From: Candidatus Shapirobacteria bacterium | Lineage (GTDB): Bacteria > Patescibacteriota > Microgenomatia > UBA12405 | Assembly: GCA_041665485.1 (NCBI GenBank) | Contig: JBAYIT010000003.1 | Location: 67,146 to 131,145 of the forward strand | Reading direction: 5' to 3' | Length of the DNA: 64,000 bases | In this document: piece by piece, positions 41,642 through 62,120 of the stretch | How positions within the stretch are numbered: the first letter of the stretch is position 1 | How the letters are laid out: every line of letters begins with the position of its first letter | Made by a program: the position numbers and the translations under genes | The notes under the pieces: generated by a model | What the model was told of the DNA's origin: nothing | Seen by the model: only the letters and a program-made list of their open reading frames with translations | Database searches by the model: none

Positions 41642-41650
41642 GAATATTCA

Positions 41651-42729: not shown

Positions 42730-42733
42730 AGTC

Positions 42734-43435: not shown

Positions 43436-43449
43436 TCCCGATATCGGGA
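43436..43449. promoter_or_regulatory. Perfect 14-bp palindrome TCCCGATATCGGGA immediately upstream of the HTH gene (candidate operator)
   Basis: The palindrome was read from the sequence. Its half-site CCGATA also forms the palindrome at 20805..20822. Confidence 0.3.
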
Positions 43450-43454
43450 TATAA

Positions 43455-44387: not shown

Positions 44388-44413
44388 TTCCCTCGATGTC
44401 GAAAGATTGATGC

Positions 44414-48222: not shown

Positions 48223-48807
48223 CTAATACCTCCATATTTTTTGGTTTCATCTTCCAATTGTCTCATGGCCTTATTCTACCGCCAAAGATGATAATTATCA
48301 GACAATCAGTCTAGTAGTGACTAGTGTATCGTAATTAAATTGACGTAGAGGAGAAATTTAAACTTACTTAATGTTGTTGACGTTATATAACAGTGTCTTC
48401 ACCTTGGTGGTCGGCCGGACTCGACAAAAACGTTCTCCAGTGGATGCTGGATAACGTGAAATAAACGCAATCGCCAGAGGGGGAAAAAGAATCCGCCCTC
48501 TCTAATTGTTAATTCAGTCTACACAAAAAAATATGTTAATTGTTTAATCTTTCATGAAAAAACCAACTAAAGCTCAACTAAGCCGGGCCGGTAAAGATCT
48601 GCGGAATCCTCACACCAGAGAGGTGAAAGAAAGGAAAGCGACACAAACACTCGTCGCAGGTAGGAAGAAAAAATAGAGAGATCGAATTGTAGCCCATTTT
48701 CATATTTATAGATAAAATATTATTATTTGGAATAATTCAATAACAAATACAAACATGACATAGAATGATATATGGCGCGCAATCCGTGAATCAGATAGAC
48801 TGTCTAT

Positions 48808-49902
48808 ATGCAAAAAAGAAAGGGGGGTAAACCCAGAATATTATCTTTATTTTCCGGGTGCGGAGGGCTGGACTTAGGATTCGTACAAGAAGACTTTAGG
48901 ATTGTTTGGGCAAATGATTTTTATCATCCTGCTTGCGAAACATATAAGAACAACTTTGGTGACCACATTTTCGAAAGAGATATTACCGAAGTCGATTTTA
49001 AAAATCTTCCGGACTGCGATATTATCACGGGAGGGTTTCCTTGTCAGGATTTTTCAATGATTTGGAAGCGGGGAGGTATCGGCACCGATAGGGGCAATTT
49101 ATATAAATATTTTGTTAAAGCAGTATCCGCAAAGTTACCCAAAATATTTGTTGCAGAGAATGTTAAAGGTCTCCTCACCGCGAATAAAGGAATGGCGATA
49201 AAACAAATCGTTGAAGATTTTCAAAAGATCGATCATTCGGGTTATAGAATTTATATTAATCTATATAACTTTGCAGAATACGGAGTACCTCAATTAAGAG
49301 AAAGGGTCATTATTGTGGGTGTAAGGAGCGACATCCCCTTTAAGTTTCGTAAACCTGCTCCAATCCGTAGTCAAAATAATTACGTGACCTCTAAAGAAGC
49401 CCTTAAAGACGTTGAAAAAGTTGTATATAACAATGAGCACATAAATATAATGGAAAGGACTAAAAAAATAATAAGTTTAATTCCGCCGGGAGGAAATTTT
49501 ACCGATATACCAAAAGACAGCCCTTATTACGTAAAGGGAATGATAAGCCACGTATATAGGAGACTCCATCCGGACAAGCCCTCGACAACGATAATTGCAG
49601 GCGGTGGTGGCGGTACATGGGGTTATCATTTCAATGAACCTAGACCATTAACAAACAGAGAAAGAGCTCGATTATTCGGATATCCGGACGATTTCATATT
49701 CACAGGTTCTGTCGCTGAAGTTAGAAAGCAAATTGGTAACTCAGTTCCGCCTCCGGGGGCCAGAGCAGTAGCGAAAGAAATAAAAAAGCTCTTTAAAGAA
49801 ACGTTTACGCCGGTAAATGTGAACAATTTAAGACCATTATCCGGGGATGCGTTAAAATACATTAGTTATGATGAATCGGGAGAGCTTAAACTAAAAAAAT
49901 AA
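48808..49902 (+). CDS. DNA (cytosine-5)-methyltransferase
   Basis: Motif I is LFSGCGGLDLGF, motif IV is GGFPCQDFS, motif VI is ENVKGLL and the motif IX/X region is RERARLFGYPDDFIF. Confidence 0.9.
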   Translation: MQKRKGGKPRILSLFSGCGGLDLGFVQEDFRIVWANDFYHPACETYKNNFGDHIFERDITEVDFKNLPDCDIITGGFPCQDFSMIWKRGGIGTDRGNLYKYFVKAVSAKLPKIFVAENVKGLLTANKGMAIKQIVEDFQKIDHSGYRIYINLYNFAEYGVPQLRERVIIVGVRSDIPFKFRKPAPIRSQNNYVTSKEALKDVEKVVYNNEHINIMERTKKIISLIPPGGNFTDIPKDSPYYVKGMISHVYRRLHPDKPSTTIIAGGGGGTWGYHFNEPRPLTNRERARLFGYPDDFIFTGSVAEVRKQIGNSVPPPGARAVAKEIKKLFKETFTPVNVNNLRPLSGDALKYISYDESGELKLKK

Positions 49903-49903
49903 T

Positions 49904-50920
49904 ATGCTATGGAATAATGTCGACACTTTAGGCGGAGATTTTATAAATCAAGTAGACACAGAGTTTGGCGATGCCCTTGGAGTAACAATCGCTTCGGGAT
50001 ATGTTTCTTTGGATATTATCAATAAGTATTATTCTAATTTTCAAACAATTTCACAAAACGGAGGGTCGTCAAGATTGTTGGTTGGAATGGCCTTTTATGA
50101 GGGATTGTCAGCAAATAAACTGTCATTGTTGACTAGTCTTAATAATCAATTAAAACAAACAAATGAAAATAACGGAGTATTTGTGAGCTACAATGGAAAA
50201 TTCCATGGGAAAATATACCAGTTCGACAAAGACGCAGGAAAATCCTACTATTTAGGATCGTCGAATTTTTCCAGAAGCGGTTTATCTGGAAACATTGAAT
50301 GTACAGCATCCATTTCTGATTCGGACACACAATCGAGACTAAGTACATTTATAGGCTACTTATTCTTGCCAGAAAATGCCATCCATATTGATAAGGCGGA
50401 AATTGTAGTACCCGGAAGTTCAGAATATCGACAAAAAATGGCGATTACTCTCGACGATCTTGAAAAATACGATCCAGCAACTGTCGATAAGTCGATCCTC
50501 CCAATTTTTGAATTCCCTCTTTCGCGTATTGCCAATAAAGAAAAGTCAAATTTAAACGCGTATTTTGGGAAGGGTCGATGGTCAAGGGCAACTGGAAAAA
50601 TCGTTCCTAGGCCCTGGTATGAAGTCGAATTAATAGCCGACAGTAGTGTTCGAGGTACTCCGTTATACCCTAGAGGCGATTTTAAAGCATATACCGATGA
50701 CGGATATATTATCCCAATGGTAACCAACGGAGACTACGATAAAAATATAAGATCCAAAAGTAATTTAAAGATACTTGGCCAATGGATAAAGAACAAACTT
50801 CAAAAAAGCGGTGCATTACTCCCGTTAATGCCGGTCACTCAAGATACTTTGGACGCATATGGACGAAGTTCTATAAACTTCTACAAAATAAGGGATGGTA
50901 AATACTACATGGAGTTTTAA
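49904..50920 (+). CDS. PLD-family restriction endonuclease (BfiI/NgoAVII-like: N-terminal HKD catalytic domain + C-terminal DNA-binding domain)
   Basis: The HKD motif is HGKIYQFDKDAGKSYYLGSSNFS. It lies directly downstream of the MTase with a 1-nt spacer, and the product is 338 aa. Confidence 0.5.
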   Translation: MLWNNVDTLGGDFINQVDTEFGDALGVTIASGYVSLDIINKYYSNFQTISQNGGSSRLLVGMAFYEGLSANKLSLLTSLNNQLKQTNENNGVFVSYNGKFHGKIYQFDKDAGKSYYLGSSNFSRSGLSGNIECTASISDSDTQSRLSTFIGYLFLPENAIHIDKAEIVVPGSSEYRQKMAITLDDLEKYDPATVDKSILPIFEFPLSRIANKEKSNLNAYFGKGRWSRATGKIVPRPWYEVELIADSSVRGTPLYPRGDFKAYTDDGYIIPMVTNGDYDKNIRSKSNLKILGQWIKNKLQKSGALLPLMPVTQDTLDAYGRSSINFYKIRDGKYYMEF

Positions 50921-50948
50921 TCGGGCATCTTTATAATTCATTCCATAA

Positions 50949-51350
50949 ATGGATAACCTGATAAAAGAGCAACGCAGTTTAAACATGTCGCGGATAAAAA
51001 GTTCTAATACTAAATTAGAACAAAAATTCTTTAAACTCCTTAATGAACGGCACATCGATTATATTGACCATCCAAACCTATTTGGAAAGCCAGACTGCCA
51101 AATAAACAATGTATTGATCTTTATAGATAGTGACTTCTGGCACGGCTGGAATTTTAAACGATGGAAAGAAAGATTGCCAAAAGAGTACTGGAGATTAAAA
51201 ATTGCACGTAATATTAATCGTGATCATCACAAATTTAGAAAATTAAAAGACGAAGGATATGTTGTAATTAGGATTTGGGAACATAATCTAAAAAAAGAAG
51301 ATAAAATGAACAAATTACTCCATAACATCACACAGAATAACAAAGGTTAG
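50949..51350 (+). CDS. vsr: Very-short-patch repair endonuclease Vsr
   Basis: Vsr-family signatures are present: RSLNMSRIKSSNTKLE...GKPD...IFIDSDFWHGW. Confidence 0.8.
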   Translation: MDNLIKEQRSLNMSRIKSSNTKLEQKFFKLLNERHIDYIDHPNLFGKPDCQINNVLIFIDSDFWHGWNFKRWKERLPKEYWRLKIARNINRDHHKFRKLKDEGYVVIRIWEHNLKKEDKMNKLLHNITQNNKG

Positions 51351-51355
51351 ATAAA

Positions 51356-51982
51356 TTACGGCCCAATCTCTCCCACAAACGTTCTTGGATTCACTGGTAT
51401 TCCAAATACATTAATTTGGAAATGTAAATGTGGTCCAGTTGACCAGCCAGTTGTTCCTTCTTTGCCAATCACATCCCCGATTTTTACCTTTTGGCCTTTA
51501 TAAACCAACACTTTATCTAAGTGGCCATATAAGGAAGTCACATTATTCCCATGGTCAATAATTATGTGCTTGCCGTAGCCTATCGCCGTTTGAGCCGCAT
51601 AAGTTACTGTTCCATCCATAAAGGGAGTAATATCATCGCCAGTTTTTCCTTCGGGGTTAGCAATATCAATCCCAGTATGAAATAGTTGGTAGGGGAGATG
51701 AGGTTTGCCAAATTCCAAAGTTATTACCCCCTTAACCGGCCAGACCATTGGTGAAGAAATAACCTTAACAACCTTGCCACTGGCTGGATCATGAATGTCA
51801 ACCGTGTTGGTGGCTGAATCGACTGTCGCCAGCTTATCAGAAACAATGTTTATGCCCGTCTGGGTCAAAATAATAACGGCGATTACCGGCAACAATAAAA
51901 CCAAAAGAAAGGCAAAGATTACAATTTTTAACTCCCCTCGATACGACCAAAGGGCAAAAATGGTTCCAATTGGCATGGGCAT
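51356..51982 (-). CDS. M23-family metallopeptidase (LytM-like), membrane-anchored; likely T4SS-associated cell-wall hydrolase
   Basis: The zinc ligands are HTGIDI...HGNNVTSLYGHL...GPHLHF (H.GxD and HxH). Confidence 0.8.
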   Translation of the reverse strand: MPMPIGTIFALWSYRGELKIVIFAFLLVLLLPVIAVIILTQTGINIVSDKLATVDSATNTVDIHDPASGKVVKVISSPMVWPVKGVITLEFGKPHLPYQLFHTGIDIANPEGKTGDDITPFMDGTVTYAAQTAIGYGKHIIIDHGNNVTSLYGHLDKVLVYKGQKVKIGDVIGKEGTTGWSTGPHLHFQINVFGIPVNPRTFVGEIGP

Positions 51983-51983
51983 A

Positions 51984-53783
51984 TTAGCTATAAATTTCTC
52001 TTGGGTCAGTCGTCAGTAGGGGATGTTCTTTTTCCGAAGCCACCACCTTTAAAGCCACATGGTTTTGATCGGCAATAATCAATGCCTCACCCCGATCGCA
52101 AGTTAACAAGAAATGTTGTTCATAACCGCTTAAATGAAACTCTTCCGCCACTTTCTTAATCGTCGTCGTATCCTGTTTCATTAACACTCGCAGTGATGAT
52201 TGGGAGGCAATCGCTCGGCCGTATTCGGAACTCAAAAAATCATTGGCTTGTTGGGAAATAATCGTTACCCCCAGATAATACTTTCTTGCCCGTCTTACTA
52301 ATCCCGAGATATAGCGCGCACTTTCTTCCTGTTGTAAAAGTATCCACCCCTCATCAATTACCAATATTCTTTTTTGCGGATGAGTCTTTACTTGTGAATT
52401 AACAAAATTAGCAATCGTCAACATCATAATTGGTCGCAAGGTTTCACTAAGATCTTTAATATCAAAAACTACCAATCGGTTATCAAGTTCAATATTAGTT
52501 TGGGAATCAAACACAGAAGACAATGACCCTTTGACAAATCTTTCTAATCGGTCGCCTAAATCTTTCTGTTTCAGCCGCTTAAGTGTTTTGTAAAAATCTT
52601 TAAGTAGCGGGAACTCCTGTTTCTTTTTCGCCTTATTCTTGCCGTTTAGGGTATAGCCAAACTCTTTGTAAGTCAGAATAATCACCCTATCTACCACCGC
52701 TTTTTCTTCCGATGATAACCCTCCAACCATCAGGGAGATTATTTCTGTTAAATCCTGAATGTGTTCCGACAAACCATTTTCACCGGTCACAGTCGTGGTT
52801 GAAAAATCAAAGGGGTTGATTTTTTCTTTTGATTTAGCCGAAAGCTGGATATAAACACCATCAACCGAGGCCGCTAATTGTTTATATTCCCGCTCTGGAT
52901 CAACCACAATTACCCGAGTCCCCTGCATCAATTGTCTTAAAATTTCCACCTTGGCGGTATAGCTTTTGCCAGATCCCGATTGAGCAAAGATAATACTATT
53001 GGCGTTAGTCAGAGAAAAACGGTCAATTATCACCAATGAATTATTTGACCGATTAACCCCATAGAGTATCCCCGACTCTTGAACCAATTCCGACGACACA
53101 AACGGAAATGTCAGTGCCGCCGATGAGCTGTCTAAGTTTCGTTTTTGATCTAAAAGGTTTTGGCATCGGGGCAAAATAGATTGCAACCCCTCAACTTGTT
53201 GAAAGGTGGCCGTTTTTATATAAAACATTCGGGTTGACATCACTGTTTCTAAAAGAGTCGTCAATTTTTGTAATTCAGATAAAGAATCAGCCGAAATCGT
53301 CATATATATTGAGACTTGAAATAGCTTTTCCTGCCCCCTCAAAATCTTATCTTTTAACTCCATGGCCGATTCCAGTGGATCAGTAATTTCGCTCCCCACC
53401 ACCTTACCATCTTTAAACATGTTTCTTTTAGTCGATTCCAACTCCGTGATTTTTCGGTTTAACTTAGGTAGGGCCAAGAGGGGATCGACTTGTTCTATGT
53501 GATAGGCAATATCAATATTATGGTTAAAGTTAATCAGCATTGATAACCAGCCGGTTGTCGCCACATAGGGGTAGCCGGAAATAAACAGGGTTCTAATATA
53601 ACGATTACCGATTTGCAAGTAACTCGAATCTTCTTTTAGTCCGGAATAGGAAATTAAATCCACCTGATCTTGTTCGCCAAAATAGAAGTTAACCGATTTT
53701 TTTGGCGTTTGGATTTTTACCAATTTACGCTTTCTTTTTAGAATCGGCTTCATTTTTTGGATCCGTTTTTTTAAATTAAACAT
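51984..53783 (-). CDS. VirB4/TrbE-like type IV secretion ATPase, C-terminal (ATPase) portion
   Basis: Walker A is FAQSGSGKSYT and Walker B is RILVIDEGW. The DUF87-like context is typical of VirB4. Confidence 0.7.
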   Translation of the reverse strand: MFNLKKRIQKMKPILKRKRKLVKIQTPKKSVNFYFGEQDQVDLISYSGLKEDSSYLQIGNRYIRTLFISGYPYVATTGWLSMLINFNHNIDIAYHIEQVDPLLALPKLNRKITELESTKRNMFKDGKVVGSEITDPLESAMELKDKILRGQEKLFQVSIYMTISADSLSELQKLTTLLETVMSTRMFYIKTATFQQVEGLQSILPRCQNLLDQKRNLDSSSAALTFPFVSSELVQESGILYGVNRSNNSLVIIDRFSLTNANSIIFAQSGSGKSYTAKVEILRQLMQGTRVIVVDPEREYKQLAASVDGVYIQLSAKSKEKINPFDFSTTTVTGENGLSEHIQDLTEIISLMVGGLSSEEKAVVDRVIILTYKEFGYTLNGKNKAKKKQEFPLLKDFYKTLKRLKQKDLGDRLERFVKGSLSSVFDSQTNIELDNRLVVFDIKDLSETLRPIMMLTIANFVNSQVKTHPQKRILVIDEGWILLQQEESARYISGLVRRARKYYLGVTIISQQANDFLSSEYGRAIASQSSLRVLMKQDTTTIKKVAEEFHLSGYEQHFLLTCDRGEALIIADQNHVALKVVASEKEHPLLTTDPREIYS

Positions 53784-54396
53784 AGTTGTTCTCCAATAGT
53801 TTTTGTAACGTTTGTCCGGTTAATGCCTGGGTTTTAATCTGTTCGGAATTATAGAAACTGTAAAATAAATCGAGTATCTCCAGGCTACTTAAAGTTTTGG
53901 CTTTCATCCCCAGTTTTTCCAAACCGCGAACGATAATATCTGTCAATAAATGTAGCTGTTCTTTCACTAACTGAAAGTCTTTATTTTTATCAGCATGCCT
54001 GTAGGGGACAACGATATAAAATTTTCGGGAAAGTATTTTGTTTCCGGCCACCAGGTTGGTTATAAAGTCACAATAGTTATCAATCTGATTCCGATAAGCT
54101 TTTTCTTTCTCGTTTTTTTTCGTTAGAGAAATTTCCTGTAAATAGCGGTCAATATCTACCTCACGAACCCGAACTAATATTTGCAACTGGCAAGGTAGGG
54201 AATTTAAAAAGTTTTGGAAACCATCAATTAATACATCTTGCTCCTCTTCGCTTTTCAGTTCAAAATTAATCGAAGAAGTTTCTAATAATACTCGATATTC
54301 TTGATTGAGAAGCACTAAAATATCGTCCTTAACTTCCTTAATTTCTATTTGTCGCCGACTACTTAATTTACTTTTTGATTTGTTTAAGAGCCACAT
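53776..54396 (-). CDS. Probable N-terminal portion of split VirB4
   Basis: Its 206 aa, added to the 599 aa ATPase, give about 805 aa, which is the typical VirB4 length. The two ORFs overlap by 8 nt in different frames. There is no independent motif. Confidence 0.35.
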   Translation of the reverse strand: MWLLNKSKSKLSSRRQIEIKEVKDDILVLLNQEYRVLLETSSINFELKSEEEQDVLIDGFQNFLNSLPCQLQILVRVREVDIDRYLQEISLTKKNEKEKAYRNQIDNYCDFITNLVAGNKILSRKFYIVVPYRHADKNKDFQLVKEQLHLLTDIIVRGLEKLGMKAKTLSSLEILDLFYSFYNSEQIKTQALTGQTLQKLLENNYV

Positions 54397-54880
54397 GCAA
54401 GCCTCCTTGTTTGCCTAACTTAAAACTTAAACTATTTTTTTGATTGTTGATGACATGTAAAAACTTTACCGATTCAACTTGGGCTAATTCGTTTTCTTTT
54501 CTGTCAACCGGCCTGGCAGAATTTACAGTCACTAATTTCCTTTTCTTTTCCATAATTGGTATCTCAATATCTCGAAGATAATTATCGTTCTTATTAAAAA
54601 TAAAATACATCGGTCGAACATTGAATCGCCATAAAATTAATAGCCAACTTAAAACCACCCTCCCCTTAATTCGGAGAGACAGAACTAAACACACAAACAA
54701 AACGATGACTATCAATGGCAGTTTGTACCAAGCCAATTTCATTACCGGTGGCACAAAAGCAAAAAGAACCGTTGTCCAAAAAATCGGGATCATCAGAATA
54801 AATATCTGCGTTATATTTAAGTTCCCGGCAATCTTATCTTCAACTGTGGTTATTTGAGCTGGAATTACCGTTGTCCTCAT
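54368..54880 (-). CDS. T4SS small membrane protein (VirB3/PrgI-like, tentative)
   Basis: Two or three TM helices are predicted. The gene sits immediately upstream of VirB4 on the same strand, which is the VirB3 position. Confidence 0.35.
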   Translation of the reverse strand: MRTTVIPAQITTVEDKIAGNLNITQIFILMIPIFWTTVLFAFVPPVMKLAWYKLPLIVIVLFVCLVLSLRIKGRVVLSWLLILWRFNVRPMYFIFNKNDNYLRDIEIPIMEKKRKLVTVNSARPVDRKENELAQVESVKFLHVINNQKNSLSFKLGKQGGLHVALKQIKK

Positions 54881-56184
54881 GCGTGAACCTCCTTTCGGGG
54901 CGATTTAGCCGTTGCTTTGGCGGTGGCCGAGTTTCTGGAGATCGAAGACGAATTGTCAGCCGTTATAACGTTGATTATTTGGCCTCCTAACTTTTTTAAC
55001 TTTCCATTACCAGAGGTATAAAACATCATGTTAGTTATTAATGAAGGGGTCTTAAGTAAGGTTAAAAATAGACCAATGGCCACGGCAATCGATATCAATG
55101 AGTTATTCGAGTGTTCCGGTAGGGCCAGAAACGACGACGCCAACTGAATCACCACCACATGCACAAAAACTATAAAAATAGTCGCCACATATGATTTAGT
55201 TGCAATTTCTGCAAAATCCGAAAACTTAGGTATTGTCCATAAAAGAAATACAAAAGGAGAAAGTACTGCCCCCAATGACACAAAAATTAACCTGGTTATA
55301 TACATGAAAAGTAAAACAATAGCCACGATTAAAAAGATAATTAAAAATATAAGAGTAATTAAAGGGGTGGTTCCGGTTATCAGAGTAGTTGGGTTGATAA
55401 TATTGACCACCCACGAGTGACTTAAGCCACCAGTCGAATTCAATACCGCACTAACCAAAGCGTTACAAGTAATGATTGTATAATCGGCCAAAAACAATGA
55501 GATGTTGGCGCCCAAAAAGAATAAGCCAAGCCGAGGCAAAATTTGTTTAAACTCGACTTCTTCAAAGCCAAAAGTATCAGCACTCATCAAATGAAGCCCC
55601 AAAACCGCCGCTACCACCACAAACAGCGAATCAACGATCCCCAACGATATCATCCAAAAATTAACGATTACCTGATTTGAGAGCAAATTCGGGGTAGTAG
55701 TCAGATAACCAAGGATGCCGTCAACAATCGGTCTGGTTGCACTCTCCACAATGTTTTGCATGAAAGCAGACATGGCATCAATTAATACTTGGGTTAATCC
55801 GTCACTTGGTTTAACTGAATTAAGGGGGGCGAGAGTGATCGCCGGAGTAGTTCCGCTACCCGACCCTGACGACAAAGCGTTGCTAAAAAGGGAAATTAAA
55901 ACTCCGGAGACGAGCACTATCACCAGGCCCATCATCGTATTTCGAATCGTTTGTTTGGCCGAGATTAATGATTGTGGATTACCACTTGAGGTTAAATATT
56001 GATAACCAGCTTTGATTAAGAAAAACACCCCCGCTATTCCCGCAATTGCCGTAATAATCGTTAAAGTATCATTGGTATAAGTCGTTATTTCACTTGCCGT
56101 CGTGACTGCTAGAACTTGCCTGGAGGCCGCCAAACTCATGCTTAAAAACCCAATCACAGATACTAGAACTCTTCGTAAGAACAT
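54877..56184 (-). CDS. Fusion of VirB2-like pilin N-domain with VirB6/TrbL-like polytopic membrane domain
   Basis: The first ~100 aa, IITAIAGIAGVFFLIKAGYQYLTSSGNPQSL...LVIVLVSG, parallel the adjacent pilin (GLISAGFFVWGGIGYITSSGNPEAL...LAIVLGA). At least six TM helices follow. Confidence 0.5.
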   Translation of the reverse strand: MFLRRVLVSVIGFLSMSLAASRQVLAVTTASEITTYTNDTLTIITAIAGIAGVFFLIKAGYQYLTSSGNPQSLISAKQTIRNTMMGLVIVLVSGVLISLFSNALSSGSGSGTTPAITLAPLNSVKPSDGLTQVLIDAMSAFMQNIVESATRPIVDGILGYLTTTPNLLSNQVIVNFWMISLGIVDSLFVVVAAVLGLHLMSADTFGFEEVEFKQILPRLGLFFLGANISLFLADYTIITCNALVSAVLNSTGGLSHSWVVNIINPTTLITGTTPLITLIFLIIFLIVAIVLLFMYITRLIFVSLGAVLSPFVFLLWTIPKFSDFAEIATKSYVATIFIVFVHVVVIQLASSFLALPEHSNNSLISIAVAIGLFLTLLKTPSLITNMMFYTSGNGKLKKLGGQIINVITADNSSSISRNSATAKATAKSPRKEVHA

Positions 56185-56193
56185 AAGAACACT

Positions 56194-56532
56194 TTATTGA
56201 GTTGTTGAACCACCAAAAGCACCGGTGGCCAATTGGGTTACTACCGTGGAGAGAACAAAAGCTCCCAAAACAATGGCTAAACCAATTGCTGAATAAAGGA
56301 TTGTTTTCTTTGATCGGTCTAAAGCTTCTGGATTACCAGAACTAGTAATATAACCAATTCCTCCCCAGACAAAAAAGCCAGCCGAAATTAGACCAGCCAG
56401 GGTTACTAACACCTGTATCACTCCTTGGATAAAGGTTTCGATCTTAATAACATCGGCCGACACCGCCAAGGTGGGTGTTGCCAAGAGAAGGAAAGATAGT
56501 AATGTACCGGAAAGTACCATTATCTTTTTCAT
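56194..56532 (-). CDS. VirB2/TrbC-like T4SS pilin
   Basis: A signal peptide precedes two hydrophobic helices with a conserved GGIGYITSSGNPE loop. Confidence 0.55.
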   Translation of the reverse strand: MKKIMVLSGTLLSFLLLATPTLAVSADVIKIETFIQGVIQVLVTLAGLISAGFFVWGGIGYITSSGNPEALDRSKKTILYSAIGLAIVLGAFVLSTVVTQLATGAFGGSTTQ

Positions 56533-56859
56533 ATAAAATGACTTTGTAAATTTATAACTGATACAGTATATAATATATAAATCTAGTTTGTATCTTTTAT
56601 AACAAATACTCTAAGTCAAGTCAATCACTTATCCCCATACTTTTCGAAAATTTCAAAGCTCTTAAATCTTTTCACTCTTCGAGTGGCGCCTGGGGCGCCG
56701 AAATAATAATAAATTTCCATTAATGTTATAAAATCCCGCACCCATTATTTAAGAAATCGTTCATCATTTTATCCCATGAAAATCACTTAAATTTCCAAAA
56801 AATGATTTGTATTGATAACATAAAAGATCAAATAGACATGAAACTTTTATCGGATCTTA

Positions 56860-56887
56860 TTGACATTTTGTAAATTAGTATTATATT
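56860..56887 (+). promoter_or_regulatory. Sigma70-like promoter for the ArgS-like gene cluster
   Basis: TTGACA (56860-56865), a 16-nt spacer and TATATT (56882-56887) lie about 30 nt upstream of the ATG at 56919. Confidence 0.35.
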
Positions 56888-56918
56888 AGAACTCACAATA
56901 TCATTTTCTAGTATTTAC

Positions 56919-59165
56919 ATGATCAAACAAGAACGAATAATTGACGGACCCGAAAGAGAGCATTTAATTGCTAAATTATGGAATGAAAGAAGAGGTCGTG
57001 TGCCTTCTCAATCACTTCAGTCTACTTCTTTATTTATTACAGTTCCATCAATGGATGTGTCAATAGATGAAGTGTTTAATGGACTACTTAATGCCATGGT
57101 CTCTTCAAACACAGACATGCTATATAAATGGGCAAGCAATTGGGGACAAACTAGAATTACGGTTCATGCTCAAAAAGGACTGTCTTTTCAATATATGAAT
57201 CGACTATCCAGAGAAGCTAAAAGTTACGAATTTTTGACAACAAATGCACTGATCGATCCGAAAAGAACTTTTGGAAATTCGCAAAACGATAATCATGCAA
57301 AATACCACATTCTTTTGGGTGATTCACCTGTGAGAATTGAAGGTGCAATACTACAAGCAGAAAGGATGATGGATGAGCTTGTTTGGTGTGTGAGCGAAAA
57401 GAAAAAACTTGAAGGGATGGGAGAGTTGGAAGCTTATGGAGCAGCTTTAACTGATGTAAAAGAAAATGGTTTCGACTTTAGATATGTTTCTGCGGAAGAC
57501 ATATTAGCACTAAAACAAGAAGAACCAGAATTGGCGGTGAGAATTTATGGTAATTTCTTGAATCGAGAAACGGTGCCTCAAATAGTAGGGGCAATTTGTC
57601 CCTTGGATAAAGAAATTACACTACCTGAAGAAAATCTCAGCGACCTACCTACAATTAGGGGTTTAGAAAAATCTCCCAAAAGCAGTGAAAAAAAGGAAAA
57701 TGTAGACAACCAAATTCCTTTTGTGGCAATAGGAATAACACTTGCTAAACAACCCCATATAGGTCATATGTTGTTGGCAAGTATTGCTGCTTCCACAAGC
57801 CGAATACTAGACAATGCACCCATATGTATTGATGGCAACGATACTGGACCTAGAGTCAATGCGGCTATCAAATATGGTGCGAGAGTATTGGGGGTTTCAA
57901 CGCAACAAGTTATAAAAGGTATAACGGACGGGACAATTGGGATTAGCACAGTGGAAGAGTGGTACAGAGACAGAAAAAATATTGATGATAGAACGATAAT
58001 TCAAGATTCGAAGATCGAGGGTGAGTTGTCTTTGGTTCAACAAGCAAGAAACACTCAAAGAATATTTAAAGATTTTTTTGGTGATAAATCAGATGTAAAG
58101 ATAATACTTGAGAGTCAAATATTGGAAGAAACCGATCAATATTTAGAAGTTGGTGATAGTTGTTGGTCAGGTACAGGTTTTAGCTGTATTAATATGGGCA
58201 ATAGATTACTCATTTTGGAAAGAGAGGGTAATCCATCTTCTGAAGCTATAAGAGCAACATTTATTGGATGTGCAGCAAAACAACTCCAAAGAGGGAAAGC
58301 TTACTTTGTTGATTCAGATCCTCAATTAAAGGATGTCTTTCATGTAAATAAATTAGCTACGAGTAAAGATAATGTTCAAATACCTGGAACTGCTATTGGA
58401 TTTAATTTTGAGATTGCTTCTGGTACTTCAGGTAATTCAATGCCCATGGAGGCATTTTTATCTTGGTATAAAGAGAAATATCCAAACTCAGATGTGGTTG
58501 CTGATATTTCATATTTGGTTCATACAAGATATCAAGTACTTCCTTTCAATGAACCTTCTTTCTTTAATTATAAGGACATTGAATCATTTTTAACTGATGT
58601 CCAACGCAGTCACGACGAGAGAACTATATTTATTAAGGAGACGGAAGGTGCTCTTTTTAAATTAAAAGAAAAGTTAAACGCTGATTCGGACAATACAAGT
58701 TTTTCAGGTGAAAAGAAAGAAAGAAAGAGAGGTCAATATGTCTTAAACATTCTAAGAGAAATTAAAGACTCTTTAATAAACGGAAGTGCGGAAGTTTATT
58801 CTCAAGCAGAAAACCTGAAAGAATCCCCAGAAGTTTGCCAAGCGATTGACTTAAAGGCAAATGAAAGACAAATAACTAAAGAGGAAGCGCGGTTAACAGT
58901 GCTTAAGGAAATAGCTTTGGATAATTCTAATCTAGATTCAAGATTCATAAATCAACTTAAAAATCAGGGTTTTAGGACTGGAGAAGAACTGGCAACTGCC
59001 TTGGAAGTTTTATGTTCCAGAGGTTTAGGATTAGCAAGGTTAACAAATGTTCTGTATGCAACGGCAAATTATTTAATAGAAGTTAGCAACAGAGTAGAAG
59101 TGATCGATAAGAACACCTTAAAAATGCTTAATAATTTACATGAAATTGTAGTCGGAAAAATATAA
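56919..59165 (+). CDS. Divergent class-I aaRS-like protein (ArgS-like HIGH region) with unique N-terminal ~270 aa
   Basis: FVAIGITLAKQPHIGHMLLASIAASTSRIL aligns with the ArgS HIGH region P.HVGH.......D.L.RLL. The genuine argS is elsewhere in the window. No clear KMSKS motif was found. Confidence 0.4.
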   Translation: MIKQERIIDGPEREHLIAKLWNERRGRVPSQSLQSTSLFITVPSMDVSIDEVFNGLLNAMVSSNTDMLYKWASNWGQTRITVHAQKGLSFQYMNRLSREAKSYEFLTTNALIDPKRTFGNSQNDNHAKYHILLGDSPVRIEGAILQAERMMDELVWCVSEKKKLEGMGELEAYGAALTDVKENGFDFRYVSAEDILALKQEEPELAVRIYGNFLNRETVPQIVGAICPLDKEITLPEENLSDLPTIRGLEKSPKSSEKKENVDNQIPFVAIGITLAKQPHIGHMLLASIAASTSRILDNAPICIDGNDTGPRVNAAIKYGARVLGVSTQQVIKGITDGTIGISTVEEWYRDRKNIDDRTIIQDSKIEGELSLVQQARNTQRIFKDFFGDKSDVKIILESQILEETDQYLEVGDSCWSGTGFSCINMGNRLLILEREGNPSSEAIRATFIGCAAKQLQRGKAYFVDSDPQLKDVFHVNKLATSKDNVQIPGTAIGFNFEIASGTSGNSMPMEAFLSWYKEKYPNSDVVADISYLVHTRYQVLPFNEPSFFNYKDIESFLTDVQRSHDERTIFIKETEGALFKLKEKLNADSDNTSFSGEKKERKRGQYVLNILREIKDSLINGSAEVYSQAENLKESPEVCQAIDLKANERQITKEEARLTVLKEIALDNSNLDSRFINQLKNQGFRTGEELATALEVLCSRGLGLARLTNVLYATANYLIEVSNRVEVIDKNTLKMLNNLHEIVVGKI

Positions 59166-60274
59166 TGCCAGAAAAGTTTTCATACTTCTTTGATTCTGAG
59201 AAATTTGCCTTACCTTTTGACGCCAAATGGATTGGTTCCTTGTCAATACTTTCAGGAGGACAGGTACAGACAACAATGATTCACTCCAGAGATGGTGTGA
59301 TTCACATATCACCGGCTTTAAGTAGAGAAACAAACGAAAATGAAGCAATTATTTGCAGCAGATGGATTCATCCTAAAAAAGGACTACTAACCGCAAATCA
59401 GCAAAATTTAGCTAAAAGTGACATTGTTACTATTCCTAAGGTAAAAGTTGTCGGAGATGTAAGGCCAAGAAACGGCGTTTCTTATCCCTTTTGGTTGGAA
59501 GAGGAAGTCGAAGGTAAATTACTAAATCAAGTAGTTTTAGAGGGAAAACCAACTTTGGGAATTTATAGGAAATTAGTAAAGTGGATGGCTGAGTTTCACT
59601 CGCCTACTGAAGGAAAAACCAGTCTTAAAGCCAACTACAATTGTAGATTGGGGTCTATCGAATCGATTTTAAAAAACGATGAAGAGTTGAGAAATTGCTT
59701 GGGTCCTCAACGTATTGAAGCAATTAATAGGCTATTAATTCTGGCAAAACAAAACATTGCAAGCTCGATTGACGAAAACGAATTAGTGGATAAAATTCAT
59801 GGCGACCTAAGAGGTAATAATGTCATGATAAATGAAAAAAGTGTCTCTGTGATCGACTTTGAACAAGGACTCTTCGGAGGAGATTGGTATTACGATTTAG
59901 AAAAGCTTTTACTAATTGAAAAACATGACCAACCAGATGTTAATAAGCCATATATGTATTTTCCAAATTTAAGCCAGAAACAAAAATATTCACTAGTCAA
60001 AACTTATTCGAAAGAAAGAGCAGCCAGAGGCTGGGAATTACCAACAATAATGCAGAATTACTTGAAAAGTCATGATCCGATTGCCTTTGAATCAAGAAGA
60101 CAACTTTATGATATTGAAAATGCTCTATCTATAATGATTTTTAGACATTTAATGGGCTGGGATTTTGGAATTAGTCCAGACGGGTCAAATAGAAGAGGTG
60201 TTAACTTTATTGCAGATTTAGTGATTCAAAATTATAATCACCTTATTTTCCAGAAAAACAATGAAACAGAATAA
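59165..60274 (+). CDS. APH/protein-kinase-like fold phosphotransferase
   Basis: The Brenner motif is IHGDLRGNNVMI and the DFE motif is VIDFEQG. Confidence 0.6.
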   Translation: MPEKFSYFFDSEKFALPFDAKWIGSLSILSGGQVQTTMIHSRDGVIHISPALSRETNENEAIICSRWIHPKKGLLTANQQNLAKSDIVTIPKVKVVGDVRPRNGVSYPFWLEEEVEGKLLNQVVLEGKPTLGIYRKLVKWMAEFHSPTEGKTSLKANYNCRLGSIESILKNDEELRNCLGPQRIEAINRLLILAKQNIASSIDENELVDKIHGDLRGNNVMINEKSVSVIDFEQGLFGGDWYYDLEKLLLIEKHDQPDVNKPYMYFPNLSQKQKYSLVKTYSKERAARGWELPTIMQNYLKSHDPIAFESRRQLYDIENALSIMIFRHLMGWDFGISPDGSNRRGVNFIADLVIQNYNHLIFQKNNETE

Positions 60275-61673
60275 TGAAATTAATATCCTAATAATCGGAG
60301 GAAGTGGTTTTTGGTCCGAAAAGAACCACTATCCTGCTATTCTCAAACTTCAAGAAAAGGGACTACCCGTAAAGGTCAGACTAATTTGTGATATTAGAAA
60401 TCCTCGTGAAGAGGCAAACCGAAAATATTTACCTGAAATATTTAGAATCAATGACCCAAAGTGGATTAATCCTAACGAGACAAGTTTGAACCAGCTTGGA
60501 AAAATTTGTAAAAAAGAGAAGATTAACATGGTGATTGTATCGACTAATCCGGCGTTTCATTATACCTACTGCAAATGGGCGGTGAAAAACAACTTAAATG
60601 TTTTGTGCGATAAACCTTTGGTGGTTAATTTTAATTCTGCTTCAGATATAAAAGCTGCAAGAAAAAACGAAAAGCTATATCAGGAATTAAAATCATTTGT
60701 ACTCAAAAAGCAACAAAAGAATAAGAGGTATTTATTCTGCTTACCCTTAAGAAGAAGAGTTTTGACGCCTTATGTATTTGTGGCAAAACAATTAGAGGCA
60801 GTTAACAAGAATACAGGAGAAGGAATCAGATATTTAAATATAATTGTAAACGGAGGAATATTTAAATACCCAATCGAGTTATTAGGCGGTGGATCGCATG
60901 GATATCTTGATGGCGTAGGATCATTGTCACATTCTAGTTATCACTATATTGATGTATTAGCTTGGTATCTCCAGGTTGCCCAAGGAAAGGCTAAAAAGAT
61001 AAAAATTAATTTGACAAATCTTATTCGGGTCCATGATTATTTAAGAACCAAAACTTATCAAAATTTAAGAAATATTGTTGAGGATGAATCAAATAATTTT
61101 GAAGACGAATTAGCATTGCCAGAACAAGTGCTAAACTCCGAGCTCGATTTTACATTTACTCTTAAGTTACTTGATGAAAACAATAATCAAGTAGGTATGG
61201 CTGAATATACTTGCAACCATACATCTTTTTGTCCCCGTGAAGTTAAATATCAACCAGGTGTATTGGAACCTGCAAATTACTTGCATGGCGGTAGAATGTC
61301 GCATGTATATCTTGATATCCATCAAGGAGCATTACAGAATTGGCAGATAATCAAAAATGATGTCGTGTTTGAGGGGAACAATATTACGGTTATTGGGCGA
61401 CAGCATCCATATGTTGGCAAAAAGTATATAAAAAAGGTGTTCAGGGATGCTTATGATAAAAATACATTAACACCAACTGATTTGATTGAATCATTCGTCA
61501 ATTATACTTTGGGAGAAAAATTATTAAGCAAGAAGATGAATTTACTATCCTCTTTTAATAACCAAGATCTGACCAACAAGATATTTTGCAAATTCTACGA
61601 AAAAATAGCTGAAGAATATTACAATCAAACACATAGACGAAAAATTCATATAAACTCAATTATAAATATTTAA
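60261..61673 (+). CDS. Gfo/Idh/MocA-family NAD(P)-dependent oxidoreductase
   Basis: A Rossmann motif ILIIGGSGF is at the N-terminus. The family motif VLCDKPL (EKP-like) is present, followed by a C-terminal alpha/beta domain. Confidence 0.55.
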   Translation: MKQNNEINILIIGGSGFWSEKNHYPAILKLQEKGLPVKVRLICDIRNPREEANRKYLPEIFRINDPKWINPNETSLNQLGKICKKEKINMVIVSTNPAFHYTYCKWAVKNNLNVLCDKPLVVNFNSASDIKAARKNEKLYQELKSFVLKKQQKNKRYLFCLPLRRRVLTPYVFVAKQLEAVNKNTGEGIRYLNIIVNGGIFKYPIELLGGGSHGYLDGVGSLSHSSYHYIDVLAWYLQVAQGKAKKIKINLTNLIRVHDYLRTKTYQNLRNIVEDESNNFEDELALPEQVLNSELDFTFTLKLLDENNNQVGMAEYTCNHTSFCPREVKYQPGVLEPANYLHGGRMSHVYLDIHQGALQNWQIIKNDVVFEGNNITVIGRQHPYVGKKYIKKVFRDAYDKNTLTPTDLIESFVNYTLGEKLLSKKMNLLSSFNNQDLTNKIFCKFYEKIAEEYYNQTHRRKIHINSIINI

Positions 61674-61679
61674 TAAATT

Positions 61680-62120
61680 ATGGACCAATGCGATTTCTGT
61701 GATTCAGAAGTATTAAAAAAACAAGGTGTTTATGAAGATGAATATATTATAGCTATATATCCACAAAAACCAATAATCTATCATCATTTTATAATATTTC
61801 CAAAAAGACATTCTCAGTTAGTAACTGAGATGACTGCTAAAGAAATTGCAGCAATGAACAAAGTTTTTGAGCGAATCTATAAAAATTATAAAAAGGAAAA
61901 CAAATGTATTGGTTACAATTTGTCTAGCAACAACGGATCTCCCAAGGTCGGACAAACAGTAGCCCATTGTCACTTCCATATTTATTTAAGGTTTGAAGAC
62001 GAAAAGGTGTCCCCCTATAAGGTCATGGGTGATATGTCGCTGAGGGATGTATTATCGGAAGATGAGTGGGAATTAAGAAAGAAAAAGGTTTCAGAAATAA
62101 TAAACAATAATGAAGTTTGA
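61680..62120 (+). CDS. HIT-family nucleotide hydrolase/transferase
   Basis: The histidine triad is HCHFHIY. An N-terminal CDFC is present. Confidence 0.75.
   Translation: MDQCDFCDSEVLKKQGVYEDEYIIAIYPQKPIIYHHFIIFPKRHSQLVTEMTAKEIAAMNKVFERIYKNYKKENKCIGYNLSSNNGSPKVGQTVAHCHFHIYLRFEDEKVSPYKVMGDMSLRDVLSEDEWELRKKKVSEIINNNEV

What the first reader, a model, noticed from the sequence alone, without database searches (positions are those of the whole stretch)
51356..56532. Compact type IV secretion-like module with VirB2-VirB6 fusion and split VirB4
All genes lie on the minus strand in the order pilin, pilin-VirB6 fusion, small TM protein, VirB4 N-part, VirB4 ATPase, M23 hydrolase. The N-terminal ~100 aa of the 435 aa membrane protein duplicate the stand-alone pilin's signature loop (G..GYxxSSGNP). 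This implies a pilin domain fused to the channel component. The module sits next to defence and RM genes and an Xis-like gene. It may be part of an integrative-conjugative or DNA-uptake element.
Basis: partly seen in the sequence, partly recalled or inferred. Interest (0 to 1): 0.55.

Follow-up and report, generated by a model that had tools for sequence, protein, structure and literature searches.

The report
CPR conjugative element's type-IV secretion module
The six genes are a real, intact type IV secretion operon of the kind already described in ultra-small Patescibacteria. Here it is the DNA-transfer apparatus of a ~32-kb integrative conjugative element, and its channel protein carries a built-in pilin domain.

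Summary
Window 51356-56532 (minus strand) holds six tightly packed genes:
- a VirB2-like pilin;
- a 435-aa pilin-VirB6/TrbL fusion;
- a PrgI/VirB3-like protein;
- a TrsD-like protein, which equals the VirB4 N-domain;
- the VirB4 ATPase;
- a membrane-anchored M23 peptidase.

The same order occurs in all informative related loci among 80 examined. TrsD and VirB4 are separate ORFs in 71 of 71 loci, so the "split" is an ancient gene arrangement and not a frameshift.

The window comes from a Candidatus Shapirobacteria MAG. The module belongs to the published Patescibacteria T4SS (MPF_FATA-related; TrsD, PrgI and pilin arrays reported in 2020-2025), so the system is not new.

Two things go beyond the literature I could read:
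- The VirB6 component is fused behind a pilin domain. I found no description of this, and VirB6 is reported as scarce in Microgenomatia.
- This cassette sits in a complete ICE. The source contig, 0.3-7 kb beyond the window end, encodes DUF2958, a MOB_C (Replic_Relax) relaxase, a TrwB-like coupling protein and a large serine recombinase. The same backbone lies next to the cassette in the nearest relative and in at least 12 other loci.

Defence, RM and metabolic genes are cargo. The "Xis-like" gene is not an excisionase.

The parts
56194..56532 (-). VirB2-like pilin, 112 aa: signal peptide followed by a two-helix hydrophobic hairpin
   Evidence: Pfam T4SS_pilin 1.1e-9 (38.6 bits, cut-off 26.6) and TrbC 9.2e-7 (29.4 bits, cut-off 27.9). 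NCBIfam Mbov_0395 pilin-like family 1.3e-8. Hydrophobic segments at 4-25, 33-60 and 76-106. Present in 79-80 of 80 related loci, median 68% identity.
54877..56184 (-). Pilin-VirB6/TrbL fusion, 435 aa. Layout: signal peptide, pilin hairpin (aa ~30-104), Ser/Gly/Thr linker (105-129), polytopic VirB6-like domain (130-~395), Lys-rich tail.
   Evidence: T4SS_pilin at aa 30-100, 6.3e-8. 32% identical to the neighbouring pilin, E 7e-12. TrbL_4 hits in 21 of 38 close homologues. TrbL PF04610 in 10 of 84 diverse relatives. AF2 pLDDT 83.5 and pTM 0.76. Foldseek top four matches are TrwI/VirB6 chains 7o3v_J, 7o3v_F, 8rtd_L and 8rt9_F, probability 0.87-0.98. Of 76 near-complete family representatives, 41 carry the pilin domain and 35 do not.
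54368..54880 (-). PrgI/VirB3-like membrane protein, 170 aa, with two hydrophobic segments at the N-terminus
   Evidence: PrgI 1.1e-3 for the window protein, below the cut-off. All 25 of 25 orthologues hit PrgI, best 1.6e-7. TM-like segments at 21-47 and 45-78.
53776..54396 (-). TrsD-like protein, 206 aa: a stand-alone homologue of the VirB4 N-terminal domain
   Evidence: NCBIfam CD1110 VirB4 positions 7-172, 7.7e-12. TrsD/TraD family 1e-6. Mbov_0397 positions 98-302. It is a separate ORF from VirB4 in 71 of 71 loci, and 28 of these have the same 8-nt overlap.
51984..53783 (-). VirB4 ATPase, 599 aa (central and C-terminal ATPase domains)
   Evidence: NCBIfam CD1110 VirB4 6.9e-111, 371.8 bits against cut-off 325, positions 159-734. 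Pfam P-loop_TraG 3e-25 and AAA_10. PDB 4ag5 VirB4 2.3e-45. P-loop AQSGSGKS (translation) and Walker B ILVIDE. Median 77% identity across loci.
51356..51982 (-). Membrane-anchored M23 (LytM-type) peptidoglycan endopeptidase, 208 aa; functional analogue of VirB1/PrgK
   Evidence: Peptidase_M23 3.5e-29. One N-terminal TM segment at 13-48. HTGID and HLH metal-binding motifs present. Found directly after VirB4 in 64 loci.
39304..39480 (-). XRE-type HTH regulator (59 aa as read); conserved backbone gene at the M23 side of the element
   Evidence: HTH_3 2.7e-12. Homologues lie between M23 and the PLD gene in 35 related loci.
38545..39021 (+). Small PLD-family (nuclease-like) protein, 158 aa. It is the last conserved backbone gene and the probable left end of the element.
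   Evidence: PLDc_2 2.2e-11. Homologues in 34 loci, always on the strand opposite the cassette and downstream of M23. PADLOC PLD-domain hits MkoC and DrmC.
39481..51355 (.). Cargo block 1 (~11.9 kb) between the XRE gene and the M23 gene. Contents: NUDIX, GNAT, HD, AAA_33 kinase, NUDIX, HTH protein, DUF2130, PDC-S06 candidate defence ATPase, and C5-MTase / NgoFVII-like REase / Vsr.
   Evidence: Pfam and PADLOC. In compact relatives such as L066 and L078 the M23 and XRE genes are under 100 nt apart. GC is 33-39%.
56558..64000 (.). Cargo block 2, which runs on to ~64225 beyond the window. Contents: 748-aa unknown protein, APH-like kinases, GFO/IDH/MocA oxidoreductase, HIT, 228-aa unknown protein. 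It is inserted between the MPF operon and the DNA-processing module.
   Evidence: By blastn against the nearest relative L001, blocks 51356-56557 (77% nt identity) and 64226-68988 (70.5%) are adjacent in L001. Pfam.

Beyond the window (L081; window coordinate = L081 coordinate + 52109):
- 276-aa gene, 64281-65111 (-)
- DUF2958, 65344-65640 (+)
- MOB_C/Replic_Relax relaxase, 65659-66405 (-)
- T4CP, 66547-69072 (-)
- large serine recombinase, 69351-71036 (+)

Best explanation
The six genes are the mating-pair-formation (T4SS) operon of a ~32-kb integrative conjugative element. The element lies in the chromosome of a Candidatus Shapirobacteria (Patescibacteria, monoderm) bacterium. It spans roughly window 38.5 kb to 71.0 kb on the source contig.

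**Proposed working (parts shown, mechanism inferred)**
1. The 112-aa pilin and the 435-aa fusion are inserted into the membrane through Sec signal peptides.
2. The VirB6-like domain of the fusion forms the membrane platform or channel. Its N-terminal pilin hairpin is joined by a flexible extracytoplasmic linker. I infer that it provides a built-in first layer or docking site on which free pilin is assembled into a pilus or short conduit. This would stand in for the VirB5/VirB6 stalk of diderm systems.
3. PrgI/VirB3 anchors the two-piece VirB4 (TrsD plus the ATPase), which powers assembly and transfer.
4. The membrane-anchored M23 endopeptidase opens the peptidoglycan locally.

**DNA processing (shown as genes, just outside the window)**
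- A MOB_C (Replic_Relax, PD-(D/E)XK) relaxase nicks the element.
- A TrwB-like coupling protein feeds the DNA to the channel.
- A large serine recombinase excises and integrates the element.
- Defence, RM and small-molecule-modification genes ride as cargo.
For: **Identity of each MPF part:**

**Operon structure:** overlapping or abutting genes.

**Conserved order and separate TrsD/VirB4:** 62 complete loci share the order, and TrsD and VirB4 are separate in 71 of 71.

**Source contig** (ENA k141_52553, 182.8 kb) shows, beyond the window end, DUF2958, a 248-aa relaxase, an 841-aa T4CP and a 561-aa resolvase-family recombinase:
- Relaxase: Replic_Relax 25.8 bits against cut-off 25.3; E 1e-48 to a clear Replic_Relax in L066.
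- T4CP: TrwB_AAD_bind and TraG-D_C; best PDB hits TrwB and DotL.
- Recombinase: AIRVSSIKQ catalytic motif.

**Shared backbone:** SerRec - T4CP - relaxase - DUF2958 - cassette is contiguous in the nearest relative L001 and present in at least 12 other loci. That is 16 of the 52 loci with at least 7 kb of upstream sequence.

**Signs of mobility:**
- Flanks are otherwise unrelated between genomes.
- Two copies occur per contig in two genomes.
- GC drops from 42-48% to 33-39% across the element.
- Cargo is inserted at two points relative to compact relatives.

**Relaxase class:** Replic_Relax equals the MOB_C relaxase class (PMC5357655).
Against: - No att sites, element junctions or empty site were found, and no convincing oriT. 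The boundaries are therefore inferred from gene conservation and GC only.
- No VirB8/PrgL-like protein or adhesin was identified in the cassette.
- 36 of the 52 related loci with at least 7 kb of upstream sequence show no relaxase or T4CP within 8 kb. The same cassette may therefore also exist outside ICEs.
- The only experimental data on a Patescibacteria T4SS show it is essential for epibiotic growth and lacks a recognisable relaxase or coupling protein (PMC10633639). The published survey favours a non-conjugative role (PMC12102498).
- The role proposed for the fused pilin domain is pure inference.
- Transfer has never been observed.
Confidence: 0.7

Rival explanations
1. The module is the lineage's host-interaction T4SS. 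It would be exapted from conjugation to export effectors to, or import macromolecules from, the host cell on which the epibiont lives, as proposed for Saccharibacteria. The neighbouring relaxase, T4CP and recombinase would be relics or an unrelated element.
For: - The T4SS genes (pilins, VirB6, PrgI, TrsD, VirB4 and the downstream peptidase) are essential for epibiotic growth of S. epibionticum, where no coupling protein or relaxase was recognised (PMC10633639; PMC12102498).
- Most Patescibacteria genomes carry one virB4 that is largely inherited within classes.
- 36 of the 52 related loci lack DNA-processing genes within 8 kb.
- Sequence conservation is very high (VirB4 median 77%), which fits strong selection.
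Against: - In this genome the cassette is flanked on both sides by conserved ICE backbone genes, all apparently intact.
- The backbone is colinear with that of another species' element, while the chromosomal flanks differ.
- Two copies per contig occur in some genomes.
- The region is AT-shifted and cargo-laden.
Confidence: 0.2
2. The module is a T4SS-based DNA-uptake (competence) machine, analogous to ComB of Helicobacter or Ced of Sulfolobales. It would import DNA or nucleotides for a bacterium that cannot make them.
For: - This is suggested as a possibility in PMC12102498.
- A small PLD-family nuclease-like gene is a conserved neighbour in 34 loci.
- No VirB8 or adhesin is present.
Against: - No competence genes (comEC, comF, dprA) are linked to the cassette in the window or in the conserved flanks.
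- The presence of a relaxase plus coupling protein points to export of a nicked strand, not import.
- comEC-dependent transformation already exists in the one tested relative, independently of the T4SS.
Confidence: 0.05
3. The element is a decaying, no longer transferable ICE remnant. Its T4SS operon persists only transiently or is silent.
For: - There are large cargo insertions between backbone modules.
- No VirB8-like gene, oriT or att sites were recognised.
Against: - All backbone ORFs are full-length with intact motifs: P-loop and Walker B, M23 metal ligands, and the recombinase catalytic serine motif.
- Genes are translationally coupled.
- The same cargo arrangement with identical proteins was recovered from three independent samples.
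Confidence: 0.05

Closest known systems
Patescibacteria/CPR T4SS (McLean 2020, PMC7427843; Wang 2023, PMC10633639; Quinonero-Coronel 2025, PMC12102498)
   Same: Same component set and order: VirB2-like pilin(s), VirB6, PrgI/VirB3, stand-alone TrsD, VirB4, and a peptidase downstream of virB4. The host is a monoderm and the affinity is MPF_FATA.
   Different: - Here the cassette is compact (one free pilin, not an array of 4-11). It is embedded in a complete ICE backbone (MOB_C relaxase, T4CP, serine recombinase), whereas the literature stresses the absence of relaxase and T4CP near virB4 and a non-conjugative role.
- The pilin-VirB6 fusion is not mentioned in those papers. VirB6 is reported as scarce in Microgenomatia, the class of this genome.
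pGO1/pSK41 (Staphylococcus) TrsC-TrsD-TrsE subclass of MPF_FATA
   Same: VirB3-like, then a stand-alone VirB4-N-domain protein (TrsD), then the VirB4 ATPase as three consecutive genes (NCBIfam TrsD hit 1e-6; PMC12102498).
   Different: According to PMC12102498, the pGO1 subclass lacks a recognisable VirB6 and has no VirB2-like pilin. Its relaxase class and host phylum also differ.
pCF10 PrgH-PrgI-PrgJ-PrgK (Enterococcus) monoderm T4SS
   Same: Gene order VirB6-like, VirB3-like (PrgI), VirB4, cell-wall hydrolase. PrgI family match. From my own knowledge, PrgK also contains a LytM/M23-type domain.
   Different: VirB4 (PrgJ) is a single polypeptide. There is no pilin and no pilin domain on PrgH. 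pCF10 uses surface adhesins and has a VirB8-like PrgL.
Mycoplasma ICE conjugation genes (NCBIfam Mbov_0395 pilin-like protein, Mbov_0397 VirB4)
   Same: A wall-less or monoderm ICE with a small pilin-like protein close to VirB4. The window pilin and the fusion N-domain both hit Mbov_0395 (1.3e-8 and 3.4e-7). The VirB3-like (weak, E 0.07), TrsD-like and VirB4 proteins map consecutively onto positions 2-95, 98-302 and 267-889 of the single Mbov_0397 model.
   Different: In Mycoplasma the three parts form one 894-position protein, whereas here they are three genes. All scores are below the family cut-offs, so this is a distant relative and not a member.
R388 TrwI/VirB6 - VirB5 stalk and VirB2 pilus assembly platform (PDB 7O3V, 8RT9, 8RTD)
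   Same: The C-domain's best structural matches are TrwI/VirB6. It is a polytopic helical protein in the same operon position. VirB2-type hairpin pilin is present.
   Different: There is no VirB5, VirB7, VirB9 or VirB10. The pilin-like hairpin is covalently fused to VirB6. The similarity is weak (E 0.1-0.2, TM 0.35-0.47).
MOB_C relaxase elements (pAD1 TraX type; Replic_Relax PF13814; streptococcal IMEs, PMC5357655)
   Same: The relaxase next to the T4CP belongs to Replic_Relax/MOB_C, a PD-(D/E)XK-fold family.
   Different: The protein is highly divergent and barely reaches the Pfam cut-off, with no Pfam hit on record in the precomputed annotation. It is combined with a Patescibacteria-type MPF module.

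Membership tests
Type IV secretion system (any class) | VirB4-family ATPase with intact NTP-binding motifs | tested here: met
   NCBIfam CD1110 VirB4 371.8 bits, above cut-off 325. PDB 4ag5 2.3e-45. P-loop AQSGSGKS (translation) and Walker B ILVIDE.
Type IV secretion system (any class) | VirB6/TrbL-type polytopic membrane protein | tested here: met
   The window protein itself gives no TrbL hit. However, 21 of 38 homologues at 61-83% identity hit TrbL_4, four of them above the cut-off. 10 of 84 distant relatives hit TrbL PF04610. The Foldseek top four matches are TrwI/VirB6.
Type IV secretion system (any class) | VirB3-like small membrane protein next to VirB4 | tested here: met
   PrgI family: 25 of 25 orthologues, best 1.6e-7. 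The window protein is sub-threshold at 19.9 bits against 27.
Type IV secretion system (any class) | VirB8-like (PrgL/TraM) component | tested here: not met
   None of the six proteins or the conserved neighbours gives a VirB8/PrgL hit. PMC12102498 also finds this component rarely in Patescibacteria.
Patescibacteria T4SS (MPF_FATA-related clade) | Stand-alone TrsD next to VirB4, PrgI, and VirB2-like pilin(s) in a Patescibacteria genome | tested here: met
   The organism is Candidatus Shapirobacteria.
Patescibacteria T4SS (MPF_FATA-related clade) | VirB4 falls inside the monophyletic Patescibacteria VirB4 clade | not tested
   No reference VirB4 phylogeny was available. All close homologues retrieved are from Patescibacteria-like contigs.
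Integrative conjugative element | Relaxase | tested here: met
   The 248-aa protein at L081 13550-14296 scores Replic_Relax/MOB_C 25.8 bits against cut-off 25.3. It is 37% identical (E 1e-48) to a clear Replic_Relax, and the PD.Y and RYF motifs are conserved. It lies outside the window.
Integrative conjugative element | Type IV coupling protein | tested here: met
   The 841-aa protein hits TrwB_AAD_bind 2.6e-9 and TraG-D_C 5.2e-6. Its best PDB matches are TrwB and DotL. It lies outside the window.
Integrative conjugative element | Integrase/recombinase at an element end | tested here: met
   The 561-aa protein hits the Resolvase N-domain at 36.8 bits against cut-off 23.3 and has a weak Zn_ribbon_recom hit. 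It carries the catalytic motif AIRVSSIKQ. Homologous large serine recombinases occur at the same position in 11 loci.
Integrative conjugative element | Defined ends (attL/attR) and an empty target site in related genomes | tested here: inconclusive
   No direct repeats of 11 nt or more were found between the two presumed ends. Serine recombinases use very short cores. No empty site could be retrieved.
Integrative conjugative element | oriT | tested here: inconclusive
   Only short AT-rich palindromes occur near the relaxase gene. Nothing there is both conserved and distinctive.
Integrative conjugative element | Observed excision or transfer | not testable with these tools
   This needs read-level or experimental data.
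NCBIfam Mbov_0395 / Mbov_0397 (Mycoplasma ICE) | Score above the equivalog cut-off | tested here: not met
   34.4 bits against cut-off 40 (pilin) and 295.4 against 590 (VirB4). These are related proteins, not family members.

The most novel reading that the evidence does not exclude
Patescibacteria do conjugate. This cassette would represent a family of serine-recombinase/MOB_C ICEs whose relaxases are too divergent for routine detection, so the "relaxase-less, repurposed" picture of the CPR T4SS is partly an annotation artefact. In these monoderm machines the VirB6 platform carries its own pilin domain. That domain would nucleate or anchor a VirB2-type pilus without VirB5, an assembly solution not seen in any characterised T4SS.
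Probability: 0.3. Interest if true: 0.7.

Novelty: new member of a known kind. Interest (0 to 1): 0.42.

Why it matters
The CPR T4SS is one of the few machines shown to be essential for the epibiotic lifestyle, and its substrate is unknown. Current opinion leans towards a non-conjugative, repurposed system because relaxases and coupling proteins are rarely found nearby.

This locus is a clean counter-example. An apparently intact MPF operon of the CPR type is wired to a relaxase, a coupling protein and an integrase, and it carries defence and RM cargo. It gives a concrete ICE family (backbone genes listed above) to look for in cultivable Saccharibacteria.

The recognition that VirB6 hides behind a pilin domain has two consequences:
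- It explains why VirB6 appears to be missing in Microgenomatia surveys.
- It offers a testable structural hypothesis for how a monoderm builds a VirB2 pilus.

Tried and rejected
- **Frameshift or pseudogene explanation for the split VirB4: rejected.** The downstream gene has its own GGAG-ATG start. The two ORFs are separate in 71 of 71 loci, with variable spacing from -17 to +106 nt.
- **Profile search of the fusion-protein family against PDB sequences:** only noise.
- **First AlphaFold run with a shallow alignment (all members at least 61% identical):** pLDDT 54, unusable. It was replaced by a diverse alignment.
- **tblastn of the fusion protein against 72,556 plasmids:** one marginal Streptomyces hit. 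The family is not represented on sequenced plasmids.
- **Promoter and terminator scans:** counts not above shuffled expectation.
- **Search for VirD4, relaxase or integrase inside the window:** none among the ORFs of about 400 aa and longer or among the annotated flanking ORFs. They lie just outside the window.
- **att-site search by direct repeats, and oriT search by inverted repeats:** nothing convincing.
- **"Xis-like" gene:** only a sub-threshold HTH_17 match in a 310-aa protein. It is not an excisionase, and the element uses a serine recombinase.
- **PLD protein against PDB sequences:** no hit.
- **ATPase grouping with FtsK/VirD4:** rejected.

Full report
**1. The observation**

They are packed like a translationally coupled operon. 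The junctions are a 9-nt gap, a 4-nt ATGA overlap, a 29-nt overlap, an 8-nt overlap and a 1-nt gap.

The stand-alone 112-aa protein and the first ~113 residues of the 435-aa protein align at 32% identity (E 7e-12). The alignment includes the loop GYITSSGNPEAL / YQYLTSSGNPQSL. Both exceed the Pfam cut-off for T4SS_pilin (PF18895), and the small protein also exceeds that of TrbC/VirB2.

**2. Identity of the parts**

*VirB4.* The 599-aa protein scores above the NCBIfam cut-off for the CD1110 VirB4 family (371.8 bits against 325) over model positions 159-734. It matches the solved VirB4 C-terminal domain 4AG5 at 2.3e-45. It has an AQSGSGKS P-loop (translation) and an ILVIDE Walker B motif. The refutation criterion "ATPase groups with FtsK/TraG(VirD4)" is therefore not met. 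Pfam's "P-loop_TraG" is, to my knowledge, named after the VirB4-type TraG of Bacteroides.

*TrsD.* The 206-aa protein matches positions 7-172 of the same VirB4 model and the TrsD/TraD family. The pair therefore reconstitutes a full VirB4.

*VirB3.* The 170-aa protein is sub-threshold for PrgI (19.9 bits), but all 25 orthologues tested hit PrgI, best 1.6e-7.

*Hydrolase.* The 208-aa protein is an M23 peptidase (3.5e-29) with one N-terminal membrane anchor and intact HxxxD and HxH motifs.

**3. The fusion**

The window protein itself gives no TrbL hit. Its family does:
- Of 38 homologues at 61-97% identity, all carry T4SS_pilin. 21 hit Pfam TrbL_4 (PF19597) over residues ~125-400, four of them above the cut-off.
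- An exhaustive search with the C-terminal 316 residues found 535 clusters at 50% identity.
- Of 84 diverse members, 41 hit T4SS_pilin, 22 hit TrbL_4 and 10 hit canonical TrbL/VirB6 PF04610.
- With my own HMMs, 41 of 76 representatives with a near-complete C-domain have the pilin-like N-domain and 35 do not. The 35 include ~290-aa stand-alone proteins and proteins with Pro/Ala-rich leaders that look actinobacterial by composition.

The N-domain exists alone as the neighbouring gene, and the C-domain exists alone in other lineages. It is therefore a genuine fusion.

AlphaFold with the diverse alignment gave pLDDT 83.5 and pTM 0.76. The model shows a signal helix, a two-helix hairpin (31-65, 70-104), a disordered Ser/Gly/Thr linker (105-129) and a bundle of long helices. 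Foldseek against 350,542 PDB chains ranked four TrwI/VirB6 chains of the R388 T4SS first (probability 0.87-0.98). The E-values are weak (0.1-0.2) and the TM scores are 0.35-0.47.

The topology is self-consistent. This is inference from established VirB2 and VirB6 topology. A VirB2 hairpin ends outside the membrane, and VirB6 starts outside it.

**4. The "split" VirB4**

A genome scan returned 80 related loci.
- The order pilin / fusion / VirB3 / TrsD / VirB4 / M23 is found in 62 complete loci. It is consistent in all but one of the others (cut by a contig end, or with the two pilin-domain hits swapped in rank); that one shows a pilin-fusion-M23 hit profile.
- TrsD and VirB4 are separate ORFs in 71 of 71 loci. 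28 of these have the same 8-nt overlap as the window, and the others have spacers of up to 106 nt.
- The downstream gene has its own GGAG-ATG start.

This is the TrsD + VirB4 arrangement of the pGO1 subclass of MPF_FATA. It has been reported as the most abundant T4SS component in Patescibacteria (PMC12102498). It is not a frameshift.

**5. What is known**

The window is from a Candidatus Shapirobacteria MAG, and the fusion protein is deposited as "hypothetical protein".

A T4SS region with VirB4, VirB6 and VirB2 homologues was described in Saccharibacteria in 2020. It was shown to be essential for epibiotic growth of S. epibionticum in 2023. It was surveyed across 3,035 Patescibacteria genomes in 2025.

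The 2025 survey reports:
- TrsD, PrgI, VirB6, VirB2-like pilin arrays and M23-containing hydrolases;
- few relaxases (109, of which 58 are MOB_C);
- few T4CP genes near virB4 (148);
- VirB6 "scarce" in Microgenomatia.

It concludes that the system was probably repurposed. The module is therefore a member of a known kind. None of the papers I could search mentions a pilin-VirB6 fusion. Proteins like this one would be counted as VirB2 by the survey's criteria; this is my inference.

**6. Context: an ICE**

*Inside the window.* There is no relaxase, T4CP or integrase. The left 36 kb is ordinary chromosome with Lon, ArgRS, a MurA-like gene and ABC transporters.

*In related loci.* Clustering of flanking ORFs across the 80 loci revealed a recurring backbone. 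Upstream of the pilin gene lie a large serine recombinase, an ~850-aa T4CP (TrwB_AAD_bind, TraG-D_C), a ~250-aa Replic_Relax protein and DUF2958. Downstream of M23 lie an XRE regulator and a small PLD-family protein, the latter in 34 loci.

*On the source contig.* The contig was recovered by exact protein look-up and is identical over the 11,891-nt overlap. Beyond the window end it shows:
- a 276-aa gene;
- DUF2958;
- a 248-aa Replic_Relax/MOB_C relaxase (25.8 bits against cut-off 25.3; E 1e-48 to a clear family member);
- an 841-aa T4CP (best PDB hits TrwB and DotL);
- a 561-aa resolvase-family recombinase with the AIRVSSIKQ motif.

Replic_Relax corresponds to the MOB_C relaxase superfamily and has a PD-(D/E)XK fold.

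*Comparison with the nearest relative.* Against L001, window 51356-56557 (77% nt identity) and 64226-68988 (70.5%) are adjacent. The 7.7 kb between them in the window is therefore an insertion of cargo. Likewise, M23 and XRE are under 100 nt apart in compact relatives but 11.9 kb apart here. That gap is filled with a PDC-S06 candidate defence gene, a DUF2130 gene, a type II RM system with Vsr, and NUDIX, HD and kinase genes.

*Further signs of mobility.* GC falls from 42-48% to 33-39% across the region. Flanks are unrelated between genomes. Two genomes carry two copies on one contig.

**7. Limits**

- I found no att repeats, empty site or oriT, so the ends (~38.5 kb and ~71.0 kb) are inferred.
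- Only 16 of the 52 loci with at least 7 kb of upstream sequence show DNA-processing genes within reach. Others may have them further away, as the window does, or may lack them.
- No VirB8-like component was found.
- The mechanistic role of the fused pilin domain is speculation. I suggest a built-in first layer or docking site for pilin polymerisation on the VirB6 platform, replacing VirB5.
- Many related loci carry implausible organism labels, so I make no claim about inter-class transfer.

**8. Verdict**

The system is a member of the published Patescibacteria T4SS.

It has two points of added value:
- an unreported but widespread pilin-VirB6 fusion;
- a complete MOB_C / T4CP / serine-recombinase ICE context, which argues that at least this lineage of CPR T4SS is conjugative.

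Noticed in passing
window 45679-48222 (-) and 44414-45682 (-): The 847-aa SMC/Rad50-like ATPase is a full-length match to the PADLOC candidate defence family PDC-S06 (1.8e-123). It contains a CxxC motif (GDPCIFCW). It overlaps by 4 nt a DUF2130 gene (6.2e-62), with which it may form a two-gene system.
   Followed up: partly
window 48808-51350 (+): A type II RM cassette with repair partner, carried as ICE cargo: C5 cytosine methyltransferase, NgoFVII-like PLD restriction enzyme with a B3-like DNA-binding domain, and Vsr very-short-patch endonuclease.
   Followed up: partly
window 56919-64000 (continues to ~64225 on the contig): A cargo block absent from the nearest relative. It holds a 748-aa protein with no Pfam or PADLOC hit, two APH-like kinases, a GFO/IDH/MocA oxidoreductase, a HIT hydrolase and a 228-aa unknown protein. 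It is possibly a small-molecule (nucleotide, sugar or antibiotic) modification cluster. The same arrangement with identical proteins was found in three samples.
   Followed up: partly
window 38545-39021 (+): A small PLD-family protein is a conserved neighbour of the T4SS cassette in 34 of 80 loci. It always follows an XRE regulator and lies on the opposite strand. From memory, it recalls the Nuc nuclease beside the tra genes of IncN plasmids, but it gave no PDB sequence hit.
   Followed up: partly
window 56685-56699: A G+C-rich hairpin GGCGCC-CCA-GGCGCC stands alone in the very AT-rich 386-nt intergenic region upstream of the pilin gene. It is not part of the block conserved with L001.
   Followed up: no
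L013/L034 (CAJQIG010000001.1) and L062/L070 (JBBDPM010000004.1); also L002/L003: Two copies of the six-gene cassette occur in one genome, on the same contig in two cases. This is unexpected for genomes under 1 Mb.
   Followed up: no
loci L005, L006, L015, L021, L044, L056 and others: Many contigs with this CPR-type cassette are deposited under labels such as Gammaproteobacteria, Pseudomonadales, Methanobacterium, Micrarchaeota or Omnitrophota. This is probably mislabelling or mis-binning. A ~950-kb single contig labelled Gammaproteobacteria (L021) looks like a complete CPR genome.
   Followed up: no
L002, L005, L009, L029, L039, L047, L066 (upstream of the pilin gene in most; downstream of M23 in L047): Reverse-transcriptase (RVT_1) genes lie in the flanks of the cassette in 7 loci, upstream of the pilin gene in most. 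In at least some they are near the spot where the window carries cargo block 2, which hints at an insertion hot spot.
   Followed up: no
window 1256-4599 (+): Large secreted or surface proteins with Lamin-tail, Big_13 and fibronectin-III domains lie in the chromosomal part of the window. They are candidate adhesins of the epibiont.
   Followed up: no
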